A DNA stretch of 64,000 nucleotides from Escherichia coli O127:H6 str. E2348/69. GTDB lineage: Bacteria; Pseudomonadota; Gammaproteobacteria; Enterobacterales; Enterobacteriaceae. This document shows, piece by piece, positions 9,001 through 12,000 of the stretch. Position 1 is the stretch's first letter. The number at the start of each line of letters is the position of its first letter. The position numbers are program-made. Where the stretch lies: assembly GCF_000026545.1 (NCBI RefSeq), contig NC_011601.1; one strand, written 5' to 3'.

Positions 9001-12000
9001 ATCAACCACGTACAAGGTAAGCCCGTGATGATAGTCGACGCCGAGCAGGGGTACATCATCCAGCAACTGGTGGCGGCGTTGTATCAATCCGCAGAAACAG
9101 GGATGCGTGTGGAATTATGACCAGGCCAGTAACGTTAACGGAACCCCATTTCAGCCAGCATACCCTGAACAAGTATGCTTCGCTGATGGCGCAGGGGAAC
9201 GGCTATCTTGGGCTTCGCGCCAGCCATGAAGAAGATTACACGCGCCAGACGCGCGGCATGTATCTGGCAGGGCTTTATCATCGGGCGGGGAAAAATGACA
9301 TCAACGAACTGGTGAACCTGCCTGACGTCATAGGGATGGAGATTACCTTGAATGGTGAACTTCTTGCGCTATCCCGCGAAACGTGGCAGCGCGAGCTTGA
9401 CTTCGCCAGTGGAGAATTACGTCGCAATGTCGTCTGGTCTTCAGCCAGCGGCGCACGTTATGCCATTGCCAGCCGTCGCTTTGTTTCGGCAGAACAACTG
9501 CCGCTGATGGCGCTGGAAATCAGCATTACGCCGCTGGACGCTGACGCGTCAGTGCTGATTTCAACAGGCATTGACGCCACGCAAACCAACCACGGACGAC
9601 AACATCTCGACGAAATCCAGATGCGGGTGTTTGGTCAGCATCTGATGCAGGGGATCTACACCACCCAGGATGGGCGCAGTGATGTGGCCATCAGCTGTTG
9701 CTGTAAGGTGAGCGGTGATGTGCAGCAATGCTATACCGCCAAAGAGCGCCGTTTACTGCAACATACCTGCGCGCAGCTTCACGCAGGTGAGACGTTGACG
9801 CTGCAAAAACTGGTGTGGATCGACTGGCGGGACGACAGACAAGCCGCTTTAGACGAATGGGGCAGTGCGTCGCTTCGTCAGCTTGAAATGTGCGCGCAGC
9901 AGAGTTACGACCAACTTCTTGCAGCATCAACAGAAAACTGGCGTCAATGGTGGCAGAAACGTCGTATCACGGTAAACGGCGGCGATGCGCACGATCAGCA
10001 AGCGTTAGATTATGCGCTTTATCACCTGCGCATCATGACGCCTGCCCACGATGAGCGCAGCAGCATTGCGGCGAAAGGTTTAACCGGCGAAGGCTACAAA
10101 GGCCACGTTTTCTGGGATACAGAAGTATTTTTGCTACCGTTCCATCTGTTTAGCGAACCGACGATTGCCAGAAGTTTACTGCGTTATCGCTGGCACAACT
10201 TGCCTGGCGCGCAGGAGAAAGCGCGACGCAACGGCTGGCAGGGCGCTCTGTTTCCGTGGGAAAGCGCGCGTAGCGGCGAAGAAGAGACGCCGGAATTTGC
10301 TGCCATTAACATTCGTACCGGGTTGCGGCAAAAAGTGGCCTCTGCGCAGGCGGAACATCATCTGGTGGCCGATATCGCCTGGGCGGTTATTCAATACTGG
10401 CGGACCATGGGGGATGAAAGTTTCATTGCTCATGAAGGCATGGCGCTACTTCTGGAGACGGCAAAGTTCTGGATTAGCCGCGCGGTGAGGGTTAACGACC
10501 GTCTGGAAATTCATGATGTTATTGGGCCAGACGAATATACCGAACATGTCAATAATAACGCCTTCACCAGCTATATGGCGTATTACAACGTCCAGCAGGC
10601 GCTGAATATCGCTCGTCAGTTTGGCTGTAGCGACGACGCGTTTATTCATCGTGCAGAAATGTACCTCAAAGAACTGCGGCTGCCAGAAATTCAGCCCGAC
10701 GGCGTTTTGCCGCAGGATGATTCGTTTATGGCTAAGCCGGTGATTAATCTGGCGAAATACAAAGCGGCGGCGGGGAAGCAAACCATTCTGCTGGATTATT
10801 CACGCGCAGAAGTGAACGAGATGCAGATCCTCAAACAAGCTGATGTGGTGATGCTCAATTACATGCTGCCGGAGCAGTTCTCAGCGGCATCGTGTCTTGC
10901 CAATCTGCAATTTTATGAACCGCGCACTATTCACGACTCGTCATTAAGTAAAGCAATCCACGGCATTGTTGCCGCACGCTGTGGCCTGCTGACCCAAAGT
11001 TATCAGTTCTGGCGCGAGGGGACTGAAATCGATCTTGGTGCTGATCCACATAGCTGTGATGACGGTATCCACGCTGCCGCAACTGGCGCTATCTGGCTGG
11101 GGGCGATTCAGGGTTTTGCCGGGGTGAGCGTGCGTGACGGTGAATTACATCTCAATCCGGCGTTACCTGAGCAGTGGCAACAGTTGTCTTTCCCTCTGTT
11201 CTGGCTGTCTCTTATACACAAATCCCCACCCGGGGATTTGTGATGTCTGTCAGTCTGCTTTAGGGGGACTCTTTCCATCCGGTAGTTTCCTTCCTCCCCG
11301 GCAGCGATTTTTTGAACTTTTTCCTCACCTGTTGATCTTCTCTTATATTTCATTTTCTTCGGGTCTGTTATGGTACTTTCTGATTGTTATTCATGGGCTA
11401 ACGAGCAGTTTGGACATGCCCGTCTCGGTGATCCGCGTCGTACACGACGCCTTGTGTCACTGGCCTCTTCTCTCGCTCAGCATGCAGGTCTTTCTATTGT
11501 GAAATCATCCCAGTCCACTGCTCAGGTTGAAGGTGCGTACCGCCTGATACGTAACCCGTCTGTGTCCCCGCAAGCCATTGCCGAAGCCGGATTTACCGCC
11601 ACTGTAAGGGCATGTGAGGCTCATCCGCTGCTCCTCGCGCTGGAAGACACCACCACCATTAACTTCAGTCACAGTACGGCATCTGATGACCTGGGGAATA
11701 CCACCACTAACCCGAAGACGCGCGGGCTGCTGGCTCACTCTGTCCTGATGTACGCCCCCGACAGCGCCCTGCCAGTCGGTCTTATCGAACAGCAGCGCTG
11801 GAGTCGTGCCACGGACACCTACGGTGTTAAGCACCAGCGAAAAGAACGTCCCTATGAAGAAAAAGAAAGTTACCGCTGGCAGCAGGCTTCGGAGCGCATG
11901 GCCGAACGGCTGGGGGAGATACAGAAACGGGTAATCACTGTCTGTGACCGGGAAGCGGATATCTGGCATTACCTGCATTATAAAGTCAGCCACGGGCAGC

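What the first reader, a model, noticed from the sequence alone, without database searches (positions are those of the whole stretch)
11217..11242. Perfect 11-bp-arm hairpin immediately inside the IS outside end
cacaaatcccc-accc-ggggatttgtg lies at positions 13-38 of the element, overlapping the inner part of the terminal repeat; the same structure is at 59574-59599 in copy B. I do not recall an equivalent structure at the IS50 outside end. It could block read-through transcription from the host, or serve as a host-factor or transposase contact site. Here it also supplies the stop context for the truncated ycjT.
Basis: seen in the sequence. Interest (0 to 1): 0.4.

Follow-up and report, generated by a model that had tools for sequence, protein, structure and literature searches.

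The report
Read-in terminator hairpin inside ISEc13 end
The hairpin is real; it is this mobile element's trimmed copy of a conserved transcription-stop signal that related elements carry just inside one end, most likely shielding the transposase gene from host transcription, a known strategy not previously noted in Tn5-like elements.

Summary
A perfect hairpin with 11-bp arms and a 4-nt loop lies at 11217-11242, and again at 59574-59599. These are positions 13-38 of two identical, inverted 1550-bp copies of ISEc13, an IS50-like IS4-family element, in E. coli E2348/69.

It is not chance. About 30 distinct relatives (49-57% transposase identity) carry a hairpin at the same place. The lower stem AAATCCC/GGGATTT is conserved and the upper stem varies freely but stays paired: 99.4% of cells pair and 8 of 12 pairs show changes on both sides.

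G·U wobbles occur almost only on the inward-reading strand. In most relatives a run of 6-9 T follows the stem and abuts a conserved TTGAAC-N16-GATCNGATC block that aligns with the equivalent IS50 segment. That is an intrinsic terminator facing inward, between the transposase-binding end and the transposase promoter.

ISEc13's own version is derived. Its stem top is shortened, its T-run is broken (TTTGTG, which adds 3 bp to the stem), and 71 bp are inserted before a second T-run. It scores only borderline as a terminator.

The closest known analogue is the IS200 left-end terminator. A second hairpin, under strong constraint at synonymous sites, covers the other end, and its function is unknown. 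The finding is ordinary to moderately interesting.

The parts
11205..12754 (+). ISEc13 copy A (1550 bp), inserted in ycjT in the same orientation as ycjT
   Evidence: It is 100% identical to ISEc13 copies annotated in E. coli E2348/69. The rebuilt empty site is 100% identical to intact ycjT.
11196..11204 (.). 9-bp target-site duplication CTGTTCTGG, left copy (right copy at 12755-12763)
11205..11223 (+). Outside-end-like 19-bp terminal sequence CTGTCTCTTATACACAAAT
   Evidence: It matches the IS50R outside end CTGACTCTTATACACAAGT, read from L003, at 17 of 19 positions. It is conserved in relatives.
11217..11242 (+). HP1, the hairpin of the finding: 11-bp arms and the 4-nt loop ACCC. The core AAATCCCC/GGGGATTT is homologous to the base of the relatives' terminator stem. 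The CAC/GTG extension is specific to this lineage.
   Evidence: Terminator d-score is -7.7, which is borderline.
11240..11310 (+). 71-bp segment specific to the ISEc13 lineage, lying between HP1 and the T-run/TTGAAC block and bounded by GATTT on both sides. It is absent from the ~1500-bp relatives.
11255..11304 (+). HP2, an imperfect 50-nt stem-loop predicted inside the inserted segment, followed 3 nt later by T6
   Evidence: Minimum-free-energy fold. The d-score is -19.5, so this is not a confident terminator.
11308..11317 (+). T-run (11308-11313) overlapping the conserved TTGAAC (11312-11317). This corresponds to the U-tract plus -35-like hexamer of the relatives.
11334..11337 (+). GATC lying 16 nt after TTGAAC. 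It corresponds to the GATCNGATC pair conserved across the IS50 group, including IS50R.
11370..12743 (+). Transposase ORF, 457 aa
   Evidence: It is 39% identical to the IS50R transposase.
12722..12752 (+). Inside-end hairpin GTCTCTTGATCAG-GAGAT-CTGATCAAGAGAC, with 13-bp arms. The 3' arm is positions 3-15 of the end and includes the stop codon. The 5' arm is the K-S-L-D-Q codons.
   Evidence: The partner-arm codons are fixed at synonymous sites.
12736..12754 (-). Inside-end-like 19-bp terminal sequence CTGTCTCTTGATCAGATCT, identical to the IS50R inside end
58062..59611 (-). ISEc13 copy B, identical to copy A and inverted, lying 45.3 kb away
59574..59599 (-). HP1 of copy B
58064..58094 (-). Inside-end hairpin of copy B

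Best explanation
The hairpin is ISEc13's version of an intrinsic (Rho-independent) transcription terminator. A whole clade of IS50-like elements carries it immediately inside the outside end, oriented to act on RNA polymerase entering from flanking host DNA.

In the typical clade member the layout is as follows. The 19-bp transposase-binding end comes first. A 12-13-bp stem-loop starts at position 16. A run of 6-9 T follows. Overlapping the end of that run is TTGAAC, then 16 nt, then GATCNGATC, which aligns with the equivalent IS50 segment. The ribosome-binding site and ATG come last. A transcript reading in from a host gene folds the stem and is released at the U-tract before it reaches the transposase promoter and gene. 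Transposase synthesis therefore stays under the element's own weak promoter wherever the element lands.

Shown here: the structure, its position, its covariation, its strand polarity, and the coupling of the T-run to the stem. Inferred: termination itself and its protective role.

In ISEc13 the structure is derived. The upper stem is gone, leaving 8 conserved pairs. Two T-to-G changes turn the U-tract into UUUGUG, which pairs with CAC of the terminal repeat to give the perfect 11-bp stem. A 71-bp insert then separates the stem from a second T-run next to TTGAAC. I infer that HP1 still attenuates or pauses inward transcription, probably less efficiently than in the relatives. HP2 plus the second T-run may act as a back-up.
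For: 1. Position and homology. 31 distinct left ends from relatives (49-57% amino-acid identity; Vibrio, Photobacterium, Shewanella, Alishewanella, Alteromonas, Pseudoalteromonas, Xenorhabdus, and an E. coli K-12 remnant) match one covariance model. ISEc13 scores 38 bits, E = 1e-5.

2. Covariation. 99.4% of cells pair. 8 of 12 pairs have changes on both sides, in 65 cells. No shuffle out of 500 reaches the observed values. Sliding the 3' partner by 1-3 columns drops pairing to 31-65%.

3. Strand polarity. There are 17 G·U cells against at most 2 non-standard cells on the inward-reading strand. The same stems fold worse on the opposite strand. For example, L017 goes from -13.9 to -8.6 kcal/mol and L032 from -16.1 to -11.7 kcal/mol.

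4. Terminator scores. A T-run of 6 or more follows the stem in most members. My implementation of the d'Aubenton-Carafa score gives +22 to +50 for these members, -36 to -90 for IS50-group elements without the stem, and -7.7 for ISEc13.

5. The T-run is tied to the stem. The nested Photorhabdus/Xenorhabdus subclade that lost the stem keeps TTGAAC but not the T-run.

6. Placement relative to the promoter. TTGAAC-N16-GATC(N)GATC is conserved downstream and aligns with IS50R GGAACC-N15-GATCTGATC. This is the region of the IS50 transposase promoter and its dam sites (from memory: Krebs & Reznikoff 1986; Yin et al. 1988).

7. A canonical form within the ISEc13 lineage. The 78%-identical K-12 remnant beside rluA has AAATCCCCG-AGTC-CGGGGATTT followed by TTTGTTT.

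8. Precedent. IS200 has a left-end bidirectional terminator at nt 12-34 that protects against impinging transcription (PMC4513863).
Against: ISEc13's own hairpin lacks an uninterrupted U-tract (AUUUGUGAUGU). The simple terminator scan did not list it, and its d-score is just below zero. HP2 is irregular and scores -19.5.

A second basal lineage, L018, also has TTTGTG instead of the T-run. A stem without a U-tract may therefore be a selected alternative state rather than decay, which would hint at a role for the hairpin other than termination.

All three reading frames stay open through the stem. In copy A, ycjT translation runs to a stop codon inside the right arm, so ribosomes could prevent folding.

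The alignment used for the pair counts was fitted to the structure by the covariance model.

There are no experimental data on termination for any member of this clade.
Confidence: 0.62

Rival explanations
1. The hairpin is a bidirectional element whose main job is on the opposite strand. On this reading it terminates outward, antisense transcription leaving through the outside end. That could form the 3' end of an antisense regulatory RNA, as with IS10 RNA-OUT or IS200 art200, or it could insulate neighbouring genes.
For: On the reverse strand the stem is followed by AUUUGUGUAU, which comes from the conserved end sequence. Reverse-direction d-scores are positive for some relatives (L001 +9.8, L002 +11.2, L029 +10.4, L070 +19.1). 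ISEc13 scores about the same in both directions (-6.4 against -7.7). The IS200 terminator is described as bidirectional.
Against: G·U wobbles are tolerated only on the inward-reading strand, which makes the reverse hairpin weaker in several lineages (L017 -21.7, L045 -10.8, L032 -8.1). The long perfect T-run lies only on the inward side. No antisense promoter was identified.
Confidence: 0.15
2. The palindrome is a double-stranded DNA binding site for the transposase or a host factor, or a cruciform that modulates use of the end.
For: The left arm overlaps positions 13-19 of the transposase-binding end, including part of the TTATACACA motif. That motif is the DnaA box of the IS50 outside end (from memory). 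The other end also carries an inverted copy of its own terminal sequence.
Against: In relatives the upper half of the stem differs completely in sequence and in loop length (3-10 nt) while pairing is kept, with strand-specific G·U pairs. This pattern is expected for RNA structure and not for a protein recognition sequence. IS50, whose transposase-end complex is the reference for this group, has no such palindrome.
Confidence: 0.08
3. In ISEc13 the hairpin is a non-terminating RNA structure. It could be a pause site, an RNase III or other processing site, or a stability element, acting on read-through transcripts at the element boundary together with the inside-end hairpin.
For: Two basal lineages, ISEc13 and L018, replaced the T-run with GTG, which lengthens the stem. 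The inside-end hairpin has no U-tract in either direction (d-scores -18 and -46), yet it is under strong nucleotide-level constraint. Both hairpins are present together in one clade and absent together in a nested subclade.
Against: There is no direct evidence for processing. The majority form of the outside-end structure is a textbook terminator. The co-distribution rests on only one inferred gain and one inferred loss, on an unbootstrapped NJ tree.
Confidence: 0.12
4. The palindrome arose by chance and has no function.
For: None beyond the fact that short palindromes do occur.
Against: The expectation is 0.03 per 64 kb. The structure is conserved at the same position across elements about 50% diverged, with compensatory changes.
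Confidence: 0.01

Closest known systems
IS200 left-end Rho-independent terminator (nt 12-34), which protects tnpA from impinging transcription
   Same: The position is almost the same: it starts 12-16 nt inside the left end, upstream of the transposase promoter. The inferred role is the same. Both have A/U-rich flanks that give some potential to act in both directions (PMC4513863).
   Different: The element family and transposase are unrelated: IS200/IS605 uses an HUH transposase, whereas this is an IS4/IS50 DDE element, so the similarity is convergent. Here the 5' arm overlaps the transposase-binding terminal repeat. ISEc13's copy has an interrupted U-tract. IS200's function was tested experimentally and this one's was not.
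IS10 'fold-back inhibition' and the IS50 read-through transcript structure that occludes the transposase translation start (from memory: Davis, Simons & Kleckner 1985; Krebs & Reznikoff 1986; Schulz & Reznikoff 1991)
   Same: The purpose is the same: to prevent activation of the transposase by external promoters. It occurs in the same IS family, and the structures form only in transcripts that start outside the element.
   Different: Those structures act on translation by pairing with the ribosome-binding site or AUG. The ISEc13 hairpin is local, lies 128 nt upstream of the ATG, and does not touch the start region. In relatives it has a U-tract, so it acts on transcription.
IS50 (Tn5) outside end
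   Same: The 19-bp end matches at 17 of 19 positions, and the inside end at 19 of 19. The GGAAC/TTGAAC-N16-GATCNGATC block is shared. The transposase stop codon lies inside the inside end. Copy A has a 9-bp duplication.
   Different: IS50R has no hairpin overlapping either end, and its best local structure scores d = -51. The transposases are only 39% identical.
Canonical bacterial intrinsic terminators
   Same: Relatives have a GC-rich stem of 9-10 bp, excluding the A/U pairs, a loop of 3-5 nt and a run of 6-9 U.
   Different: ISEc13 has only 4-5 GC-rich pairs before the tail UUUGUGAU. Read instead as an 11-bp stem, its tail is AUGUCUGU.

Membership tests
Intrinsic (Rho-independent) terminator | Stable GC-rich stem-loop in the nascent RNA | tested here: met
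   The 11-bp perfect stem folds at -22.1 kcal/mol with z = -4.8. The stem is conserved with covariation in 31 relatives.
Intrinsic (Rho-independent) terminator | Uninterrupted U-rich tract immediately 3' of the stem | tested here: inconclusive
   Relatives have T6-T9, with d = +22 to +50. ISEc13 has TTTGTGATGT, d = -7.7. It was not reported by the simple scan.
Intrinsic (Rho-independent) terminator | Selection on one RNA strand (polarity) | tested here: met
   On the inward-reading strand there are 17 G·U cells against at most 2 other non-Watson-Crick cells. Reverse-strand folds are weaker. ISEc13's own stem is perfect, so on its own it carries no information about polarity.
Intrinsic (Rho-independent) terminator | Transcript release at the site | not testable with these tools
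   This needs Term-seq, in vitro transcription or reporter assays.
IS200-type protective left-end terminator | Located inside the left end, upstream of the transposase promoter | tested here: met
   The stem is at positions 13-38 in ISEc13 and 16-43 in relatives. The conserved TTGAAC-N16-GATC block lies downstream.
IS200-type protective left-end terminator | Sequence homology or shared family with IS200 | tested here: not met
   The transposase is an IS4/IS50-type DDE enzyme. This is a functional analogue only.
IS10/IS50 fold-back (translation-start occlusion) | The structure pairs with the ribosome-binding site or start codon of the transposase in read-through transcripts | tested here: not met
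   The hairpin pairs locally. The ATG is at 11370, 128 nt downstream. The fold of 11205-11380 shows no pairing between the hairpin and the start region.
IS4 family, IS50 group (the host element) | DDE transposase homologous to IS50 Tnp, CTGTCTCTT... terminal repeats, 9-bp target duplication | tested here: met
   39% identity to IS50R over 99% of the length. Ends compared. Copy A has a 9-bp duplication, while copy B has 10 bp. RefSeq annotates the element as ISEc13.
Protein-binding DNA palindrome (operator-like site) | Both half-sites conserved in sequence across relatives | tested here: not met
   The upper stem and loop vary freely and only the pairing is conserved.

The most novel reading that the evidence does not exclude
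The outside-end and inside-end hairpins could form one two-part system, gained once and lost together, in which each terminal repeat is half of a stem. The system could do more than stop read-in transcription. For example, it could mark or process RNAs that cross either boundary, or pause the transcribing and translating machinery at the end of tnp so that nascent transposase loads in cis. On this reading, ISEc13's loss of the U-tract in favour of a longer stem is an adaptive switch linked to its high copy number (about 30 places in E2348/69).
Probability: 0.12. Interest if true: 0.6.

Novelty: new variant of a known kind. Interest (0 to 1): 0.38.

Why it matters
Mobile elements must keep transposase expression low wherever they land. 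The textbook solutions in the Tn5/Tn10 family act on translation.

This analysis suggests that a large, widespread clade of Tn5-like elements instead, or additionally, placed a true transcription terminator between the transposase-binding end and the promoter. That converges on the solution known from the unrelated IS200.

It also gives a natural series for measuring how much read-in protection matters for copy number: canonical terminator, then the ISEc13 type with a broken U-tract, then the subclade that lost it entirely.

For genome annotation, it means that ISEc13-type insertions are likely to be polar on downstream genes in one orientation.

The inside-end hairpin, held by fixed synonymous codons, is an unexplained constraint on a transposase gene.

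Tried and rejected
- **Rfam.** A scan of 11000-13000 at E up to 1 found no family.
- **Simple promoter/terminator scan.** It found no promoter and did not list HP1 or HP2. Its five terminator-like hits are all on the minus strand inside tnp.
- **Literature.** The 8 papers that mention ISEc13 are resistance and genome surveys, judging from their titles and abstracts. The IS4-family review (PMC2266710) does not contain the words terminator, stem-loop or secondary structure, and its two uses of 'hairpin' concern other things. Searches on 'impinging transcription' returned only the IS200 work.
- **Sequestration of the ribosome-binding site, as in IS10/IS50.** Rejected, because the stem is local and far from the ATG.
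- **Wobble asymmetry at the inside-end hairpin as a test of strand.** Rejected as uninformative. The only synonymous changes available in the K-S-L-D codons are those that give G·U on the inward strand, so coding constraint alone explains the bias (by inspection).
- **HP2 plus the second T-run as the real terminator of ISEc13.** Not supported by score (d = -19.5), so kept only as a possibility.
- **The idea that the 71-bp insert split the stem from its U-tract.** Weakened by the K-12 remnant, which has both the insert and an intact T-run after HP1.
- **MAFFT alone.** It could not align the variable-length stems. The covariance model was therefore seeded from seven ends of equal geometry.
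Full report
**1. Observation**

The sequence CACAAATCCCC-ACCC-GGGGATTTGTG is at 11217-11242. Its reverse complement is at 59574-59599. An exhaustive scan of the window for perfect hairpins (arms of 9 bp or more, loops of 3-8 nt) recovered the site at both coordinates. Dinucleotide-preserving shuffles give 0.03 hairpins with arms of 11 bp or more per 64 kb.

As RNA the stem folds at -22.1 kcal/mol (z = -4.8) on the + strand and -19.1 kcal/mol (z = -3.8) on the - strand.

The two sites belong to two identical, inverted 1552-nt repeats. These are copies of ISEc13, and the window is E. coli E2348/69.

I fixed the boundaries by rebuilding the empty sites.
- Copy A is 11205-12754 (1550 bp), with the 9-bp duplication CTGTTCTGG. 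The rebuilt site is 100% identical to intact ycjT in other strains.
- Copy B is 58062-59611, with a 10-bp duplication CACTTTCGTG. Its rebuilt site is 100% identical to the pdxI-azoR intergenic region of other strains.

The interrupted ycjT ORF (9117..11243) ends at a TGA that straddles the last two bases of the right arm.

**2. The element**

The 457-aa transposase (11370-12743) is 39% identical to that of IS50R.

Reading IS50R from a plasmid record (L003) gives the outside end CTGACTCTTATACACAAGT and the inside end CTGTCTCTTGATCAGATCT. ISEc13's left end, CTGTCTCTTATACACAAAT, matches that outside end at 17 of 19 positions. Its right end is identical to the IS50 inside end.

IS50R has no hairpin overlapping either end.

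**3. Relatives**

A scan of one genome per species with a five-protein alignment returned 80 loci with 38-57% identity. Reading their ends showed that a large group has the left end CTGTCTCTTATACACAAATCCC[variable]GGGATTTTTTT(T)GAAC. The group includes Vibrio, Photobacterium, Enterovibrio, Shewanella, Alishewanella, Alteromonas, Pseudoalteromonas, Psychrosphaera, Neiella and Xenorhabdus.

The variable part is always self-complementary but differs between lineages. Examples are CCCCAAGC/GCTTGGGG, CCCTCGAT/ATCGAGGG, CCCCCGGT/ACCGGGGG, CCCTGAGC/GCTCAGGG, CCCTACTAA/TTAGTGGGG and CCCCGCTAA/TTGGCGGGG.

I built a covariance model from seven ends of equal geometry. It found 32 matches (31 distinct), including both ISEc13 copies at 38 bits.

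On that alignment:
- 99.4% of cells form standard pairs.
- 8 of 12 pairs show changes on both sides, in 65 cells.
- No shuffle out of 500 reaches the observed values for cells paired, double-sided changes or the covariation score.
- Sliding the 3' partners by 1-3 columns drops pairing to 31-65%.

The alignment was fitted to the structure, which inflates such counts somewhat. However, the hairpins are also obvious in the raw sequences.

**4. What kind of structure**

Three observations indicate an intrinsic terminator acting on inward-reading RNA.

- *Strand polarity.* 17 cells are G·U pairs on the inward-reading strand, against at most 2 other non-standard cells. On the opposite strand these become A·C mismatches, and the stems fold worse there. 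For example, L017 goes from -13.9 to -8.6 kcal/mol, L032 from -16.1 to -11.7 kcal/mol, and L045 from -17.2 to -12.1 kcal/mol.
- *T-run.* The stem is followed directly by a run of 6-9 T in most members. My implementation of the d'Aubenton-Carafa score gives +22 to +50 for these members. IS50-group elements without the stem score -36 to -90.
- *The T-run goes with the stem, not with the promoter.* The Photorhabdus/Xenorhabdus subclade lacks the stem. It keeps TTGAAC but has no T-run.

Downstream, the block TTGAAC-N16-GATC(T/A)GATC is conserved across the whole group. It aligns with IS50R GGAACC-N15-GATCTGATC. From memory, that region holds the IS50 transposase promoter and the dam sites overlapping it.

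The architecture is therefore, in order: transposase-binding end, terminator, promoter, ribosome-binding site and ATG. A structure placed there stops transcripts that enter from outside before they reach the transposase gene.

**5. ISEc13's own version is derived**

It keeps the 8 conserved lower pairs (AAATCCCC/GGGGATTT) but has no upper stem.

Where relatives have the T-run, ISEc13 has TTTGTG.

A 71-bp segment follows (11240-11310), bounded by GATTT on both sides. Only then come a T6 run and TTGAAC (11308-11317). The inserted segment is predicted to fold into an irregular 50-nt stem, HP2 (11255-11304), that ends 3 nt before the T-run.

Terminator scores are -7.7 for HP1 (borderline) and -19.5 for HP2.

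A 78%-identical remnant next to rluA in E. coli K-12 carries the same insert but has a canonical first hairpin, AAATCCCCG-AGTC-CGGGGATTT followed by TTTGTTT. So the broken T-run is specific to the ISEc13 sublineage.

Other ISEc13-like variants keep the stem with loop changes or a G·T pair (ATCC 25922 and pCys-1).

One other basal relative, L018, also has TTTGTG and a 14-bp stem. The 'longer stem, no U-run' state therefore arose or persisted at least twice. This is the main reason my confidence that HP1 of ISEc13 is still a working terminator is only moderate.

**6. The other end**

ISEc13 also has a perfect hairpin with 13-bp arms at the inside end: 12722-12752, GTCTCTTGATCAG-GAGAT-CTGATCAAGAGAC. 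One arm is positions 3-15 of the terminal repeat and includes the stop codon. The other arm is the K-S-L-D-Q codons of the transposase.

Every relative with the outside-end stem has the same feature, a core GTCTCTTGA/TCAAGAGAC extended to 9-14 bp. The exceptions are two imperfect ones: L021 has a single mismatch and L044 a degenerate stem. Elements without the outside-end stem lack it.

Among 66 alignment columns with an invariant four- or six-fold degenerate residue in 18 clade members:
- 64 columns use 3-6 different codons.
- The two partner-arm codons are the exception: Ser TCT in 18 of 18 and Leu CTT in 17 of 18.

This is strong nucleotide-level constraint. One compensatory change is visible: position 15 is G:C in ISEc13 and C:G in L001 and L043.

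The hairpin has no U-tract in either direction, with d-scores of -18 inward and -46 outward. I cannot assign it a function.

On an unbootstrapped NJ tree the hairpin-bearing elements form one clade. The subclade lacking both hairpins is nested inside it. That suggests one gain and one joint loss, which is suggestive but amounts to only two events.

**7. Comparison with known systems**

The closest functional analogue is the bidirectional Rho-independent terminator at nt 12-34 of IS200, which protects tnpA from impinging transcription (PMC4513863). That element is unrelated, so the similarity is convergent.

Within the IS4 family, the known protections are the IS10 fold-back inhibition and the IS50 read-through structure. 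Both act on translation by occluding the start site (from memory). The ISEc13 stem does not touch the start region.

I found no description of this terminator. The IS4-family review does not mention terminators or stem-loops. The ISEc13 literature is catalogue-type. Rfam has no matching family. My literature access is limited to open-access text, so prior description elsewhere, for example in ISfinder notes, cannot be excluded.

**8. Verdict**

The second guess, a protein contact site, is not supported.

This is a new variant of a known strategy. It is of moderate interest to specialists in transposon regulation, and the constrained inside-end hairpin remains unexplained.

Noticed in passing
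window 12722-12752 (copy B 58064-58094): A second perfect hairpin with 13-bp arms covers positions 3-15 of the inside end, the transposase stop codon and the K-S-L-D-Q codons. It is conserved in all relatives that have the outside-end stem. The partner-arm codons are fixed at synonymous sites: TCT in 18 of 18 and CTT in 17 of 18, whereas 64 other invariant-residue columns use 3-6 codons each. Its function is unknown.
   Followed up: partly
window 58052-58061 and 59612-59621: Copy B is flanked by a 10-bp direct repeat (CACTTTCGTG) rather than the 9 bp of copy A and of Tn5. The rebuilt empty site is 100% identical to other strains. The insertion lies inside the stem-loop CCTCCCAC-TTTC-GTGGGAGG, preceded by A7, in the intergenic region between pdxI and azoR, so it splits what looks like a host terminator.
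   Followed up: yes
window 11205-12754 and 58062-59611: The two identical ISEc13 copies are in inverted orientation with 45.3 kb between them, and their inside ends face the intervening segment. This is a potential composite-transposon or inversion substrate. Each copy has its own target duplication, so they are independent insertions.
   Followed up: partly
window 11240-11310: A 71-bp segment specific to the ISEc13 lineage lies between the hairpin and the T-run/TTGAAC block and is bounded by GATTT on both sides. It is also present, in diverged form with 12 extra bp, in the K-12 remnant. Its origin is unknown.
   Followed up: partly
L085:1801-2157 (E. coli K-12, between rluA and yabQ/yabP): K-12 and many other E. 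coli strains carry a 78%-identical remnant of an ISEc13-like left end with a canonical terminator hairpin. It is annotated only as a frameshifted 'transposase DNA-binding-containing protein'.
   Followed up: partly
window 11312-11337; loci L001-L084, first ~110 nt of each element: The block (T/G)TGAAC-N16-GATC(T/A)GATC is conserved across the whole IS50 group, including IS50R. ISEc13 keeps only one of the two GATC sites.
   Followed up: partly
window 11873-12290, minus strand: Five terminator-like sites were found on the strand antisense to tnp, against 1.9 expected. An example is GGCGGGCTGCCCGCCCGCC followed by TTTTT at 12135-12117, which overlaps the conserved QKGGR codons. None was found on the sense strand.
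   Followed up: no
window 21001-21035, 55971-56011, 51455-51477: Three other perfect palindromes unrelated to the IS: AATATGCCTGATGGTG-CAA-CACCATCAGGCATATT (16-bp arms), TAACTAATTCGCGTTGC-TGTACAT-GCAACGCGAATTAGTTA (17-bp arms), and GCTCCCCTG-GAATG-CAGGGGAGC (9-bp arms).
   Followed up: no
L018 (contig of a Sedimentisphaerales MAG, 1504 bp): A full-length relative of this otherwise gammaproteobacterial IS clade sits on a contig the size of the IS alone, assigned to a Planctomycetota MAG. This may be a binning artefact or horizontal transfer. It shares ISEc13's TTTGTG stem extension.
   Followed up: no
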